A program made the position numbers and the translations under genes. This document shows positions 8,464 through 10,085 of a DNA stretch of 64,000 bases, piece after piece. The notes under the pieces were generated by a model. The model ran no database searches. It was not told where the DNA came from and worked only from the letters and a program-made list of their open reading frames with translations. Origin of the DNA: Dongiaceae bacterium (GTDB lineage: Bacteria; Pseudomonadota; Alphaproteobacteria; SHNJ01); assembly GCA_050182275.1 (NCBI GenBank), contig JBFXCK010000002.1, forward strand, positions 154,202 through 218,201, in the 5' to 3' direction. Every line of letters starts with the position of its first letter. Within the stretch, counting starts at the first letter, position 1.

Positions 8464-9171
8464 ATGGAGAATTTTATGGAGTGGTGTAGTTTAGTAATAA
8501 AATCAGTCTTTAATACCATTTGGAGGAATATAGAAGGCATATTTCAGAGTTGGTCAGTTTTTTCTGATGTTCTTACAGCTTTTGGTACTCTGGTATTAGT
8601 TATATTGGCATTGATAGGGTTTAATGCCTGGAAACAGCAAATTTCCATGCAAAGAAAGGCAACTTTTATTGATGAATTACTTCACACGATATATGAATAT
8701 ATAGATGCTATGGGGGGGCCAGTCCAATCTGTTAGATTTATTAAATATGGTTTTGAGGCATACTCCGACACAGAAAAACTAAGGCAAAATAATAATAAAC
8801 ATGCGGGCATAATTACTTATATTAAAAAAAATGGAGAAAATGATTCTAAGCGTTTATTTGAACGTCTTAGAAATGTTCGCCCTTTTAAATCTAGGCTGCA
8901 TTTTTTGATAATTAAAGGCGGATTATTTAAATTTGAAGATTATTCAACATGTGCTACTGCTTGTAGGTCATTAACAAGTTCTTATGATCAAATAGAAGCA
9001 TTAGCAGCTATGATAAGTAGTCCTCTTATGAATTGGGAAAATCCGAAAGTTAAGGAGATGTTAGATAAGTTAGCTCTGCTGGATGCCTTAAATATAGAAA
9101 ATAATTTATCCACTAACCTCGAAATACTTATTAAGTTTATAGAATCTATTTATGGTAAGTTATTTAAATAG
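8464..9171 (+). CDS. hypothetical single-pass membrane protein (235 aa), strongly AT-rich
   Basis: True start taken at MENFMEW (8464), since the upstream part of the 295-aa ORF overlaps the DUF192 gene in another frame. One TM helix (VLTAFGTLVLVILALIGFNAW). GC is roughly one third by eye versus >50% in neighbours. Confidence 0.55.
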   Translation: MENFMEWCSLVIKSVFNTIWRNIEGIFQSWSVFSDVLTAFGTLVLVILALIGFNAWKQQISMQRKATFIDELLHTIYEYIDAMGGPVQSVRFIKYGFEAYSDTEKLRQNNNKHAGIITYIKKNGENDSKRLFERLRNVRPFKSRLHFLIIKGGLFKFEDYSTCATACRSLTSSYDQIEALAAMISSPLMNWENPKVKEMLDKLALLDALNIENNLSTNLEILIKFIESIYGKLFK

Positions 9172-9961
9172 AATCACCAAGCTCTCGTTTAATGGTCGCT
9201 AATACATCACCATATGTCTCTCTTATATTTCCTTTGGAAAATCTAATTTGTTGAATGCCCTCTAAATTGGAGAATTTTTCAACGTCTGCTTCTAATAGTA
9301 CAATGGCGCGGCTAAAACCCAGCTTTCCTTGAAATAATCCGATTTCATGAATAACATTTTGTCGAGCGCGAGATTTACCATTTGGTTGCTCGTCTTCTGC
9401 AGTTAAGACAAGAAATGCTATTGAAGATTTTGAGGCCATTTCATCAAGGATATCTCTAATAGTGTGTCCAGCTCTTGTGCCAGTTTCGTATGCCTCGATA
9501 CAATAATGATGTTGCTCTTGCAGATGATCTTTCAAGTCTCGCCACTGTTTATCATGTCCATGGCCAATAAAAACAATAGGCGGTTTTTTAGGAGTGGGCG
9601 GCGGCTGAACTATAGAGTTGTTATGATGAGACTCAAAAATAGAAAAAATTCTTTGAATATCTTGCGTTTTTGTTCCTTTGACTAATACACGAGTAGTAAA
9701 AAACGCGTCACCTGTTATGCGAAATCTAGCATCATTAAAAATGATGTCGATTGTGAACCAACTCTTACTTTTTCTATAATCTTCAAAAAATTCGTCTTCA
9801 TTATCATGTTCCCAGGTTGAATCATCTATGTGAACACTAAGTTGAGCATAAGTTTTTTGAGAGCTATTAGGTTTTGGATAAAGACTTAAGAATAAATTAA
9901 TAGCTTCCTTTAGAACTTCTACTGAAAATCTAGTATTGTTGTAATCTTTAGATCTTTGCAT
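9164..9961 (-). CDS. two-domain protein: N-terminal unknown domain (~130 aa) plus C-terminal TIR-like nucleotide-binding domain (Pfam PF10137, CAP12/PycTIR-type)
   Basis: C-terminal block PIVFIGHGHD...IAFLVLTAEDE...SRARQNVIHEIGLFQGKLGFSRAIVLLE...NLEGIQQIRF. This matches the FIGxxxE...AIxLxTxDD...RARxNVxFELGxFxGxLGxxRVxxL...PSDLxG signature of the TIR-like family. AT-rich. 3' end overlaps the convergent membrane-protein gene by 8 bp. Confidence 0.6.
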   Translation of the reverse strand: MQRSKDYNNTRFSVEVLKEAINLFLSLYPKPNSSQKTYAQLSVHIDDSTWEHDNEDEFFEDYRKSKSWFTIDIIFNDARFRITGDAFFTTRVLVKGTKTQDIQRIFSIFESHHNNSIVQPPPTPKKPPIVFIGHGHDKQWRDLKDHLQEQHHYCIEAYETGTRAGHTIRDILDEMASKSSIAFLVLTAEDEQPNGKSRARQNVIHEIGLFQGKLGFSRAIVLLEADVEKFSNLEGIQQIRFSKGNIRETYGDVLATIKRELGDSI

Positions 9962-10008
9962 GATTCAAGACTGCTATAAGGTAAATTCTTTACAAGGGTG
10001 CTTAAAAA

Positions 10009-10085
10009 TGGTCGGGGCGAGAGGATTTGAACCTCCGACCCTCTGCTCCCAAAGCAGATGCGCTACCAGGCTGCGCTACACCCCG
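10009..10085 (-). tRNA. tRNA-Pro (anticodon TGG)
   Basis: Reverse complement folds as cloverleaf CGGGGTG..anticodon loop TTTGGGA..TTCAAAT T-loop..CGCCCCG-A-CCA. 77 nt. Confidence 0.85.

What the first reader, a model, noticed from the sequence alone, without database searches (positions are those of the whole stretch)
8464..10009. AT-rich two-gene islet at the 3' end of tRNA-Pro: membrane protein convergent with a sensor-TIR-like protein (candidate novel defence module)
Two genes with markedly lower GC than the neighbourhood sit between a conserved DUF192 gene and the CCA end of tRNA-Pro, a classic integration hotspot. No integrase remains. One gene encodes a single-pass membrane protein. The other fuses an unassignable ~130-aa N-terminal domain to a C-terminal TIR-like nucleotide-binding domain of the CAP12/PycTIR type (FIGHGHD ... 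RARQNVIHEIGLFQGKLG ... LEGIQQIRF). That TIR-like domain family acts as the NAD-depleting or signal-binding effector in CBASS, Pycsar and Thoeris-type anti-phage systems. Here there is no cyclase, SIR2 or SLOG partner. The only partner is the membrane protein, and the two genes overlap tail-to-tail by 8 bp. I could not match this architecture to a described system. It may be a minimal sensor-TIR plus membrane-effector defence pair, or an orphan effector.
Basis: partly seen in the sequence, partly recalled or inferred. Interest (0 to 1): 0.8.

Follow-up and report, generated by a model that had tools for sequence, protein, structure and literature searches.

The report
Imported TIR gene beside unrelated membrane gene
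A 1.6-kb AT-rich insert next to tRNA-Pro carries a stand-alone TIR-type NAD-cleaving protein of a very common, untested candidate anti-phage family, plus an unrelated small membrane protein. The two genes are never found together elsewhere, so this looks like a mini defence islet rather than a new two-gene system.

Summary
Window 8451-10008 is the lowest-GC stretch in the window (33.7% against 50.2%; GC3 0.24-0.25 against 0.51-0.58). It lies exactly between the DUF192 stop codon and the CCA end of tRNA-Pro, and its two convergent genes overlap by 8 bp.

Gene B (9164-9961, minus strand) has a genuine PF10137 TIR domain (E 7e-28). The R-x-N-x-x-x-E motif is conserved; in SfSTING its last residue is the catalytic E84. 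Cap12 TIR-STING is the best structural match.

B's N-terminal domain has no family assignment, but the whole 265-aa architecture is a very large family: 4172 hits at about 50% identity across many phyla. These homologs are mostly stand-alone and sit in defence islands, mobile elements and tRNA-adjacent sites. B also matches PADLOC candidate PDC-S35.

Gene A is a single-pass membrane protein with a four-helix bundle that is probably cytoplasmic. It belongs to a separate family of about 200 clusters, and members of that family also sit beside integrases and defence genes.

None of 89 B-family loci encodes an A homolog. None of nine independent A-family loci (other than the window's own genome) encodes a B homolog or any TIR.

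The best reading is two independent accessory genes. B is probably a sensor-fused NADase that acts by abortive infection. This is a new member of a known kind and of modest interest.

The parts
8451..10008 (.). AT-rich islet between the DUF192 stop codon (8450) and the CCA end of tRNA-Pro (10009)
   Evidence: GC is 0.337 against 0.503 +/- 0.031 for windows of the same size, the lowest in the 64 kb. GC3 is 0.24-0.25 against 0.51-0.58 in the neighbouring genes. There are no flanking direct repeats and no second copy of the tRNA 3' end.
8464..9171 (+). Gene A: single-pass membrane protein with an all-helical bundle, probably cytoplasmic (235 aa; start at 8476 more likely, giving 231 aa)
8557..8625 (+). 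Only transmembrane helix of A (about aa 32-54), followed by NAWKQQISMQRK
   Evidence: Kyte-Doolittle 19-residue windows exceed 1.6 only at aa 29-39. The family consensus has K/R-rich TWKxQxKA straight after the helix. By the positive-inside rule this places the bundle in the cytoplasm; this step is an inference.
9164..9171 (.). 8-bp tail-to-tail overlap of the two stop codons (TTAAATAG)
   Evidence: Read directly from the sequence. No terminator-like site lies between the genes.
9164..9961 (-). Gene B: 265-aa protein with an N-terminal conserved domain of unknown function fused to a C-terminal PF10137 TIR domain
   Evidence: There are 4172 homologs, with the best hits at about 50% identity over 98-100% of the length. 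An identical protein is named 'TIR domain-containing protein, MAG Dongiaceae bacterium'. The AF2 model has pLDDT 85.5.
9176..9580 (-). TIR (CAP12/PycTIR-type) domain of B, aa 128-262
9344..9364 (-). Active-site motif R200-Q-N202-V-I-H-E206
   Evidence: It aligns with SfSTING R-D-N-V-V-F-E. In SfSTING, R78 and N80 bind the substrate and E84 is the catalytic residue (PMC9402430). R200, N202 and E206 are invariant in 25 family members.
9596..9961 (-). N-terminal domain of B, aa 1-122 (secondary-structure order b-a-b-b-a-b-b-b-a), putative sensor or regulatory domain
   Evidence: pLDDT is 90-98. K5, W50, E57, F58, R63, F109 and E110 are invariant. It has no PDB sequence hit and only weak DUF7191 hits in 8 of 20 members (E >= 0.029). 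It is present twice in tandem in 384-424-aa homologs.
10009..10085 (-). tRNA-Pro(tgg), right-hand boundary; B starts 47 nt downstream on the same strand
   Evidence: ARAGORN; sequence.
7968..8450 (+). DUF192 gene, left-hand boundary; A starts 13-25 nt after its stop codon on the same strand
   Evidence: PF02643 at E 8.5e-33.

Best explanation
The islet is a small piece of horizontally acquired DNA carrying two unrelated accessory genes that happen to be neighbours. It is not a two-component system.

Gene B is a self-contained, single-protein immune effector of the stand-alone TIR kind. Its C-terminal PF10137 TIR domain is a NAD+ glycohydrolase, and its conserved ~120-aa N-terminal domain acts as sensor or regulator. 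The inferred mechanism is that the protein is held inactive until the N-domain meets an infection cue, either a phage protein or a small molecule. The TIR domains then pack into higher-order assemblies that complete the active site, as in Cap12 (TIR-STING). NAD+ is hydrolysed and the infected cell stops supporting phage growth (abortive infection).

Gene A is an independent, mobile-element and defence-island-associated single-pass membrane protein with a four-helix bundle that is probably cytoplasmic. Its function is unknown.

**Shown here:** the domain identities, the conserved active-site motif, the size and stand-alone nature of the B family, the lack of A-B co-occurrence, the foreign composition, and the defence-island, mobile-element and tRNA contexts of both families.

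**Inferred:** NADase activity, activation by oligomerisation, the sensor role of the N-domain, and any anti-phage phenotype.
For: **B is a TIR-type enzyme**
- The TIR domain scores far above the Pfam threshold.
- Cap12 is the best match by sequence and by structure.
- R200, N202 and E206 match SfSTING R78, N80 and the catalytic E84, and are invariant in the family.

**B is a widespread, mostly stand-alone family**
- There are 4172 homologs. The best 120 are listed, mostly 257-300 aa, and span many phyla.
- Neighbours are variable in about 80% of loci.

**B homologs sit in defence and mobile contexts**
- Neighbours include HamA, PDC-S32/AbiJ_NTD4, HNH, methyltransferases, PDC-S05/S45/S66, AriA/GajA-like ATPases, other TIR proteins, toxin-antitoxin genes and an integrase.
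- Nine hits lie in IMG/VR viral contigs, and B matches PHROG 16442.
- Seven B homologs lie within about 450 nt of a tRNA gene (most within about 320 nt).
- B hits the PADLOC single-gene candidate PDC-S35.

**A and B are independent**
- 0 of 89 B-family loci encode an A homolog. 0 of 9 independent A-family loci encode a B homolog or any TIR.
- A-family members sit beside integrases, PDC-S32, a PifA-like KAP NTPase and a PtuA/PDC-M01 pair.

**The islet is foreign**
- Composition.
- B's nearest relatives are all on contigs of 28-35% GC.

**Precedent**
- Stand-alone TIR proteins enriched near defence genes are a recognised category (bioRxiv 10.64898/2025.12.03.692087).
- Single-protein TIR systems have been validated in E. 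coli (PMC11350192).
Against: - No member of this exact family (N-domain plus PF10137) has been tested in anything I could find. 'PDC-S35' returns no paper.
- The PDC-S35 models align only to the TIR part and about 40 residues before it, so membership of that candidate is partial.
- The N-domain has no assigned fold or ligand. A ferredoxin-like or ACT-like reading rests only on the order of secondary-structure elements and a weak match to AF1403.
- A and B have nearly identical GC3 (0.25 and 0.24) and abut without spacer. This fits their arrival on a single fragment and leaves room for a functional link in an unsampled donor.
- Two B subclades do have conserved co-directional partners: 'C' in 9 loci and a DUF900 hydrolase in 3. 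The window's B is sister to the B+C clade in an NJ tree without bootstrap support. Some family members therefore work in pairs, and this copy may have lost a partner.
- The window's B has Asp where more than 90% of the family has Ser137. One other aligned member shares this.
- No empty site in a relative could be fetched, so the insertion is inferred from composition only.
Confidence: 0.6

Rival explanations
1. A and B form a lineage-specific two-gene system. In one version, B's TIR makes a NAD-derived signal and A is a membrane effector, as in Thoeris. In the other, A anchors or gates B at the membrane.
For: - The two genes abut with an 8-bp overlap and share the same foreign composition (GC3 0.25 and 0.24), which suggests co-transfer.
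- TIR genes paired with varied effectors, including transmembrane proteins, are the rule in Thoeris-like systems.
- A TIR plus two transmembrane proteins from phage AC1 is a validated system (PMC9122126).
- Some B subclades have conserved partner genes.
Against: - There is no co-occurrence in 89 B-family loci or in 9 independent A-family loci.
- No TIR of any Pfam family is recorded near the other A homologs.
- The genes are convergent, so they are not an operon. The real partners of B subclades are co-directional and overlap by 1-23 nt.
- PF10137 TIRs characterised so far (Cap12, PycTIR) are NAD-depleting effectors, not signal makers.
- A has no recognisable nucleotide-binding domain such as Macro, SLOG, SAVED or STING.
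Confidence: 0.1
2. B is an orphan effector of a signalling system. Its N-domain binds a nucleotide second messenger made elsewhere in the genome or by the host's housekeeping enzymes, as reported for a TIR-SAVED protein that senses c-di-AMP without its cyclase.
For: - The PF10137 TIR domain is best known as the output of CBASS and Pycsar receptors.
- A stand-alone TIR-SAVED protein works without its cyclase (bioRxiv 10.1101/2025.06.19.660554).
- The N-domain is a compact alpha/beta module that is duplicated in tandem in some homologs, as ligand-binding modules often are.
- There is a weak structural resemblance to an ACT-plus-flavodoxin-like regulator, AF1403.
Against: - The N-domain shows no similarity to STING, SAVED, cNMP-binding or CARF domains.
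- Across about 90 loci there is no recurrent cyclase next to family members.
- The NCBIfam Cap12 equivalogs score 39 and 36 bits against a cut-off of 450.
Confidence: 0.15
3. This copy of B is a stranded remnant of a B-C operon. It lost its small partner when the fragment was transferred, and it is now inactive, deregulated or decaying.
For: - In the NJ tree the window's B is sister to a clade of 8 homologs, all of which carry the ~120-aa gene C overlapping B's stop codon.
- Those loci have 28-35% GC, like the islet.
- In the window, the position of C is occupied by the 3' end of A on the other strand, and no trace of C remains.
- A nearly invariant Ser is replaced by Asp.
Against: - B is full length and keeps every invariant residue of the family, including the catalytic motif.
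- Most family members lack C (56 of 65 loci with at least 400 nt downstream), so C is not generally required.
- The tree has no support values, and the window's B sits outside the C clade rather than inside it.
Confidence: 0.1
4. B is not an NADase or immune protein. Instead it is a nucleotide or nucleoside N-glycosidase of the MilB / CMP-hydrolase type, or a regulatory nucleotide-binding protein, carried as ordinary accessory metabolism.
For: - TIR, MilB and nucleoside 2-deoxyribosyltransferase-like folds share the catalytic Glu on helix alpha-C.
- A phage-borne fragment of the family is annotated 'CMP/hydroxymethyl hydrolase'.
- JGI names the family 'predicted nucleotide-binding protein'.
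Against: - The best sequence and structure matches are the Cap12 NADases, not MilB.
- The substrate-binding R and N that SfSTING uses for NAD+ are conserved.
- The genomic contexts are defence islands and mobile elements, not nucleotide metabolism.
Confidence: 0.05

Closest known systems
Cap12 (TIR-STING) NADase effectors of CBASS, e.g. SfSTING (PDB 7UN8, 9LMQ)
   Same: They share the PF10137 TIR domain. Cap12 is the best match by sequence (E 2e-6 with the family profile) and by structure (Foldseek E 4e-5, 22-23% identity). The R-x-N-x-x-x-E motif is conserved, including the catalytic Glu. B probably shares activation by TIR-TIR packing and abortive infection by NAD+ depletion.
   Different: B has no STING domain and no CD-NTase nearby. 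The TIR domain is C-terminal rather than N-terminal. The NCBIfam Cap12 equivalog scores are 39 and 36 bits against a cut-off of 450. The sensor domain is unrelated and of unknown specificity.
PycTIR effector of Pycsar (PDB 8JSJ)
   Same: It has the same TIR subfamily. The domain order is also the same, with the sensor N-terminal and the TIR C-terminal (PADLOC PycTIR profile positions 155-265 of 288).
   Different: The match is much weaker (E 0.035 with the profile). B has no cNMP-binding domain and no pyrimidine cyclase gene.
PADLOC phage-defence candidate PDC-S35 (single-gene candidate, untested)
   Same: Five PDC-S35 models hit B at E 3e-18 to 3e-15. The proteins are similar in length (231-278 aa) with a C-terminal TIR, and both are single-gene entities.
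   Different: The alignments cover only aa 87-256 of B. The first ~90 residues of the N-domain are not matched, so B may be a sister architecture rather than a member. No publication on PDC-S35 was found.
Stand-alone or single-protein bacterial TIR defence systems (E. coli TIR-V, -VI, -IX; TIR-NLR)
   Same: Each is one gene in which a TIR catalytic residue is needed for defence, with an abortive-infection-like outcome (PMC11350192; PMC9122126). The category of 'TIRs in standalone proteins' enriched near defence genes is recognised.
   Different: The TIR subfamilies or accessory domains differ (TPR/STAND, or TIR only). The N-domain of B is not described in those papers. I made no direct sequence comparison with those proteins.
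TIR plus transmembrane-protein systems (phage AC1 TIR with two TM proteins; type II, VI and VII Thoeris with TM effectors)
   Different: Those are co-directional operons with recurrent partners. Their TIRs are signal-producing ThsB-like proteins, and their effectors carry ligand-binding domains (Macro, SLATT, DUF6650). Here the genes are convergent, the pairing is unique to this genome, and A hits no PADLOC model.

Membership tests
Pfam PF10137 (CAP12/Pycsar effector TIR domain) | HMM score above the gathering threshold | tested here: met
   97.4 bits against a cut-off of 24.7, E 7.3e-28, covering profile positions 2-118 of 119.
Pfam PF10137 (CAP12/Pycsar effector TIR domain) | Catalytic Glu on helix alpha-C, with the substrate-binding Arg and Asn before it | tested here: met
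   R200, N202 and E206 align to SfSTING R78, N80 and E84, and are invariant in 25 homologs.
Pfam PF10137 (CAP12/Pycsar effector TIR domain) | TIR / flavodoxin-like fold closest to the Cap12 TIR | tested here: met
Pfam PF10137 (CAP12/Pycsar effector TIR domain) | NAD+ glycohydrolase activity | not testable with these tools
   This needs a biochemical assay.
CBASS (Cap12 effector) | STING, SAVED or another cyclic-oligonucleotide receptor domain fused to the TIR | tested here: not met
   There is no such Pfam hit. The NCBIfam Cap12 equivalogs score 39 and 36 bits against a cut-off of 450 and align only to the TIR motif.
CBASS (Cap12 effector) | CD-NTase gene in the same operon | tested here: not met
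   No cyclase appears among the genes within 10 kb either side, and none recurs next to the homologs.
Pycsar (PycTIR) | cNMP-binding domain and an adjacent pyrimidine cyclase | tested here: not met
   There is no cNMP-binding Pfam hit and no cyclase in the neighbourhood. The PADLOC PycTIR hit covers only the TIR part.
Thoeris-type TIR signalling systems | TIR gene in a conserved co-directional operon with an effector that recurs next to related TIRs | tested here: not met
   A and B are convergent. 0 of 89 B-family loci carry an A homolog, and 0 of 9 independent A-family loci carry a TIR.
Thoeris-type TIR signalling systems | Effector with a domain that binds a TIR-derived nucleotide (SLOG, Macro, SLATT and similar) | tested here: not met
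   A has no Pfam, PADLOC or NCBIfam hit. Its fold is a generic membrane-anchored four-helix bundle.
PADLOC PDC-S35 (single-gene candidate) | Full-length match to a PDC-S35 model | tested here: inconclusive
   The E-values are significant (3e-18 to 3e-15), but the alignments start at aa 87-120 of B and at profile positions 41-111. The N-terminal part is therefore not shared, or not detectably so.
tRNA-targeted genomic island | Atypical composition directly 3' of a tRNA gene | tested here: met
tRNA-targeted genomic island | Integrase gene, and a direct repeat of the tRNA 3' end at the far boundary | tested here: not met
   No integrase lies within 10 kb either side. There is no second copy of the tRNA-Pro 3' end, even allowing 3 mismatches.
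tRNA-targeted genomic island | Empty site in related genomes | not tested
No relative of this Dongiaceae MAG could be fetched.

The most novel reading that the evidence does not exclude
The two genes were co-transferred from an unsampled AT-rich donor because they work together. On this reading, B is a PF10137 TIR that has been repurposed, in this lineage only, to signal to or be gated by a new kind of effector: the single-pass, four-helix-bundle membrane protein A. More broadly, the A family would be a promiscuous membrane module that teams up with different single-gene sensors, namely the TIR here, PDC-S32/AbiJ-like in L098 and a PifA-like KAP NTPase in L106.
Probability: 0.1. Interest if true: 0.6.

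Novelty: new member of a known kind. Interest (0 to 1): 0.3.

Why it matters
The proposed new TIR-plus-membrane defence architecture would have been notable, but the comparative data do not support it.

What remains is still useful in three ways.
- B belongs to a very large family (more than 4000 proteins across many phyla) that is experimentally untouched. The family is a stand-alone PF10137 TIR protein with a conserved, sometimes tandemly duplicated, N-terminal domain of unknown function. Showing that it is a self-contained NADase immune sensor, and finding what the N-domain recognises, would add a common single-gene system to the defence catalogue.
- Gene A defines a family of about 200 clusters that has no annotation. 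Its members are membrane-anchored helical-bundle proteins that repeatedly sit in defence islands and mobile elements.
- Two subclades of the B family have their own conserved small partners (C, and a DUF900 hydrolase). These are better candidates for true two-gene TIR systems than the pair flagged here.

Tried and rejected
1. **'Gene A is an ORFan.'** The word-indexed search returned only A itself, and I briefly accepted this. The exhaustive phmmer search then found 201 cluster representatives, so I rejected it. A second word-indexed search with the family alignment again found only 4 proteins, which shows that tool is blind to this family.
3. **att repeats or a tRNA-Pro 3' duplicate flanking the islet.** None were found.
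4. **Assigning the N-domain of B.**
   - Pfam on 20 isolated N-domains gave only weak DUF7191 hits.
   - The PDB profile search found nothing.
   - Only a weak whole-protein match to AF1403 hints at an ACT-like or ferredoxin-like module.
6. **A shared partner of the A family.** All-against-all BLAST of neighbours in 10 loci found none.
7. **A or B on known plasmids or phages.** A is absent. B is present full length on one Hymenobacter plasmid and as a fragment in one Microcystis phage.
8. **Literature on PDC-S35.** Nothing was found.
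Full report
**1. What is in the sequence**

ARAGORN places tRNA-Pro(tgg) at 10009-10085 on the minus strand, so its CCA end faces leftwards. Two convergent ORFs lie between that end and the stop codon of a DUF192 gene (7968-8450; PF02643, E 8.5e-33).
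- Gene A is 8464-9171 on the plus strand, 235 aa. A GGAG-N6-ATG favours a start at 8476, which gives the 231-aa product called in other assemblies.
- Gene B is 9164-9961 on the minus strand, 265 aa.
- Their stop codons share the octamer TTAAATAG at 9164-9171, an 8-bp overlap.

The 1558-bp interval has 33.7% GC against 50.3 +/- 3.1% for windows of the same size, and is the lowest in the whole 64 kb. GC3 is 0.25 for A and 0.24 for B, against 0.51-0.58 for the four flanking genes tested.

There is no integrase, cyclase, SIR2 or SLOG gene within 10 kb either side in the same genome, an NCBI MAG labelled Dongiaceae bacterium. There is no direct repeat of the tRNA 3' end and no terminator between the genes.

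**2. Gene B**

*TIR domain.* The C-terminal half (aa 128-262) matches PF10137, the CAP12/Pycsar TIR domain, at E 7.3e-28.
- In PADLOC it hits five models of the single-gene candidate PDC-S35 (E 3e-18 to 3e-15). It also hits CBASS TIR effectors and PycTIR more weakly.
- The NCBIfam Cap12 equivalogs score only 39 and 36 bits against a cut-off of 450.
- A profile of the family finds Cap12 (9lmq, 7un8) and PycTIR (8jsj) among solved structures.
- The motif R200-Q-N202-V-I-H-E206 aligns with SfSTING R-D-N-V-V-F-E. In SfSTING, R78 and N80 bind the substrate and E84 is the catalytic glutamate (PMC9402430). All three positions are invariant in 25 aligned family members.
- B therefore has the sequence features of a catalytically competent TIR NADase. 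The activity itself is inferred.

*N-terminal domain.* The ~122-aa N-terminal domain is modelled at pLDDT 90-98, with secondary-structure order b-a-b-b-a-b-b-b-a.
- It has its own invariant residues: K5, W50, E57, F58, R63, F109 and E110.
- It has no Pfam family. Only 8 of 20 members give weak DUF7191 hits (E >= 0.029), and there is no PDB sequence match.
- A weak whole-protein Foldseek match to AF1403, an ACT-plus-flavodoxin-like regulator, together with the b-a-b-b-a-b start, hints at a ferredoxin-like or ACT-like module. I regard this only as a lead.

*Family size.* The domain is not idiosyncratic. The full-length architecture occurs in 4172 database proteins. The best 120 are 45-55% identical over 98-100% of B. 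They come from Cyanobacteria, Nitrospinae, Rhodocyclaceae, Marinimicrobia, Chloroflexota, Rickettsiales, Binatia and many metagenomes. Homologs of 384-424 aa carry the N-domain twice in tandem, which marks it as a discrete module.

**3. Gene A**

The word-indexed protein search returned only A itself. The exhaustive phmmer search then found 201 cluster representatives (143 at E <= 1e-10). Most are 205-225 aa and align over their full length at 22-42% identity. A is therefore a real but unannotated family.
- It has one hydrophobic helix at about aa 32-54, followed by a K/R-rich stretch. The family consensus there is TWKxQxKA. By the positive-inside rule, this places the remaining ~180 residues in the cytoplasm; this step is an inference.
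- AF2 models the protein at pLDDT 94.7 as a transmembrane helix that continues into a long helix and a four-helix bundle.
- No Pfam, NCBIfam or PADLOC model matches.

**4. Are A and B a pair?**

This is the crux of the finding, and I tested it in both directions.

*Loci around B homologs.* I fetched 80 metagenomic and 9 viral-collection loci around B homologs. 58 of them have at least 700 nt downstream of B and 54 have at least 700 nt upstream. Neither tblastn with A nor an unfiltered HMM of the A family finds an A homolog in any of them. Only the three loci from the window's own genome hit.

*Loci around A homologs.* I fetched nine independent contexts of A homologs, excluding a 1-kb contig that carries no neighbour. 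An HMM of the B family finds nothing there, no TIR Pfam family is recorded on any called gene, and the ten loci including the window share no neighbour family.

*Orientation.* A and B are convergent. By contrast, the partners that some B subclades do possess are co-directional and translationally coupled.
- A ~120-aa protein 'C' (MKAxVQYNDFxGTAAADISD...) has no Pfam or PADLOC match. It overlaps B's stop codon by 1-23 nt in most of the 9 loci where it occurs, which is 9 of 65 loci with enough downstream sequence.
- A DUF900 alpha/beta hydrolase follows B in 3 loci.

The pairing of A and B is thus unique to this genome, and the two-gene-module interpretation is not supported.

**5. What the contexts do say**

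Both families live in variable, defence-rich or mobile DNA.
- *B neighbours* include HamA, PDC-S32/AbiJ_NTD4, HNH nucleases, type II and III methyltransferases, PDC-S05/S45/S66, AriA/GajA-like ATPases, other TIR proteins, toxin-antitoxin genes and an integrase.
- B matches PHROG 16442 (E 5e-32) and occurs in 9 IMG/VR contigs.
- B occurs on a Hymenobacter plasmid, and as a fragment beside a transposase in a Microcystis phage.
- Seven B homologs lie within about 450 nt of a tRNA gene (most within about 320 nt), so tRNA-adjacent placement recurs.
- *A homologs* sit in these places:
  - next to a P4-type integrase and a PtuA/PDC-M01 pair (L094);
  - between a tRNA-His and a PDC-S32 gene (L098, E 7e-101);
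  - next to a P4-like integrase and a PifA-like KAP NTPase (L106, L107);
  - beside three tandem integrases (L103);
  - with an integrase and transposases (L105);
  - in a prophage-like stretch of Vibrio splendidus (L099).

**6. Origin**

In an NJ tree without support values, the window's B is sister to the clade of eight homologs that all carry partner C. Those contigs have 28-35% GC, like the islet, whereas the median for all B-family loci is 50%.

This fits import of B from an AT-rich lineage. It also leaves open that this copy lost C. The matching GC3 of A and B suggests they arrived on one fragment, but that is equally expected for two neighbours in a donor defence island.

**7. Most likely mechanism**

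B is a single-protein immune effector of the stand-alone TIR kind. An N-terminal sensor or regulatory domain holds a C-terminal NADase in check. An infection cue releases it, TIR-TIR packing completes the active site as in SfSTING filaments, NAD+ is depleted, and the infection aborts.

Stand-alone TIR proteins enriched near defence genes are an acknowledged category. Several single-protein TIR systems have been validated in E. coli, with the catalytic residue required. A stand-alone TIR-SAVED effector can work without its cyclase.

A is an independent defence-island and mobile-element membrane protein whose role is unknown. I put about 0.6 on this overall picture, and about 0.8 on the narrower statement that A and B are not a conserved system.

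The rivals are:
- a lineage-specific A-B pair (0.1);
- an orphan effector listening to a nucleotide made elsewhere (0.15);
- a stranded remnant of a B-C operon (0.1);
- a non-NADase glycosidase (0.05).

**8. Comparison with known systems, and novelty**

B is a member of PF10137 by score, motif and fold.
- It is not a CBASS Cap12, because it has no STING or SAVED domain, no CD-NTase, and falls far below the equivalog cut-off.
- It is not a PycTIR, because it has no cNMP-binding domain and no cyclase.
- It is not a Thoeris TIR, because it has no recurrent co-directional effector.
- Its relation to PADLOC PDC-S35 is partial, covering the TIR plus about 40 residues before it.

I therefore class it as a new member of a known kind (stand-alone TIR effector proteins).

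Interest is modest (0.3). The B family at large, and the B-C and B-DUF900 operons seen in passing, are more promising experimental targets than the A-B pair.

Noticed in passing
window 10642-10661 (compare tRNA-Arg at 10487-10563, minus strand): An exact 20-nt copy of the 5' end of tRNA-Arg(tct) (TGTCCCCGTAGCTCAGCTGG, the acceptor 5' arm plus the D arm) lies 97 nt upstream of the real gene. It may be a scar of a past rearrangement or integration at this tRNA cluster.
   Followed up: partly
window 1-1650: This is a second low-GC patch (0.388), with three ORFs (98-448, 452-937, 1010-1648) that have no Pfam family. The first and third share a motif (YVL[I/L]ED...GGG..YYI.D..K.L.P). In the parent contig they follow a 1407-aa ankyrin-repeat protein, so they may be a toxin/immunity-like cassette.
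   Followed up: partly
L005 6789-7145, L011 2532-2948, L014 785-1159, L016 6758-7168, L021 6780-7142, L022 4574-4942, L027 2825-3199, L028 2655-3029, L038 6771-7136: A conserved 118-138-aa protein 'C' (MKAxVQYNDFxGTAAADISD...) has no Pfam or PADLOC match and only a marginal PHROG hit (E 0.0037). It is encoded directly downstream of B homologs and in most loci overlaps their stop codon. All nine loci form one B clade on contigs of 28-35% GC, and the window's B is that clade's sister. This looks like a real, undescribed two-gene TIR operon.
   Followed up: partly
L043 2815-3822, L056 1237-2244, L066 1541-2029: Another B subclade is followed, 14 nt downstream and on the same strand, by a DUF900 alpha/beta hydrolase (PF05990, E 3.5e-25). 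It could be a TIR-plus-hydrolase system of the kind listed among putative Thoeris types.
   Followed up: no
proteins P0002-P0005, P0017, P0020, P0104 (homologs of window 9164-9961): B homologs of 384-424 aa carry the N-terminal domain twice in tandem before the TIR domain. This shows the domain is a discrete module that can be duplicated.
   Followed up: partly
L098 6740-8566; L106 4352-9479; L094 1407-6177; L103 6001-11517: Members of the unannotated A family repeatedly sit beside candidate or known defence genes and integrases. Examples are tRNA-His plus PDC-S32/AbiJ_NTD4, a P4-like integrase plus a PifA-like KAP NTPase, an integrase plus PtuA/PDC-M01, and three tandem tyrosine recombinases. 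The A family may itself be a defence-island gene.
   Followed up: partly
L109 4001-4342 (Microcystis phage vB_MaeS-yong1, MT855965.1): A truncated B-like TIR fragment, 62% identical over aa 149-262 and annotated 'CMP/hydroxymethyl hydrolase', lies next to a DDE transposase in a cyanophage genome.
   Followed up: no
window 9962-10008: B starts only 47 nt downstream of tRNA-Pro on the same strand, and the consensus scan found no promoter-like site in that gap. A starts 13-25 nt after the DUF192 stop codon on the same strand. Both imported genes may therefore be expressed by read-through from host genes.
   Followed up: no
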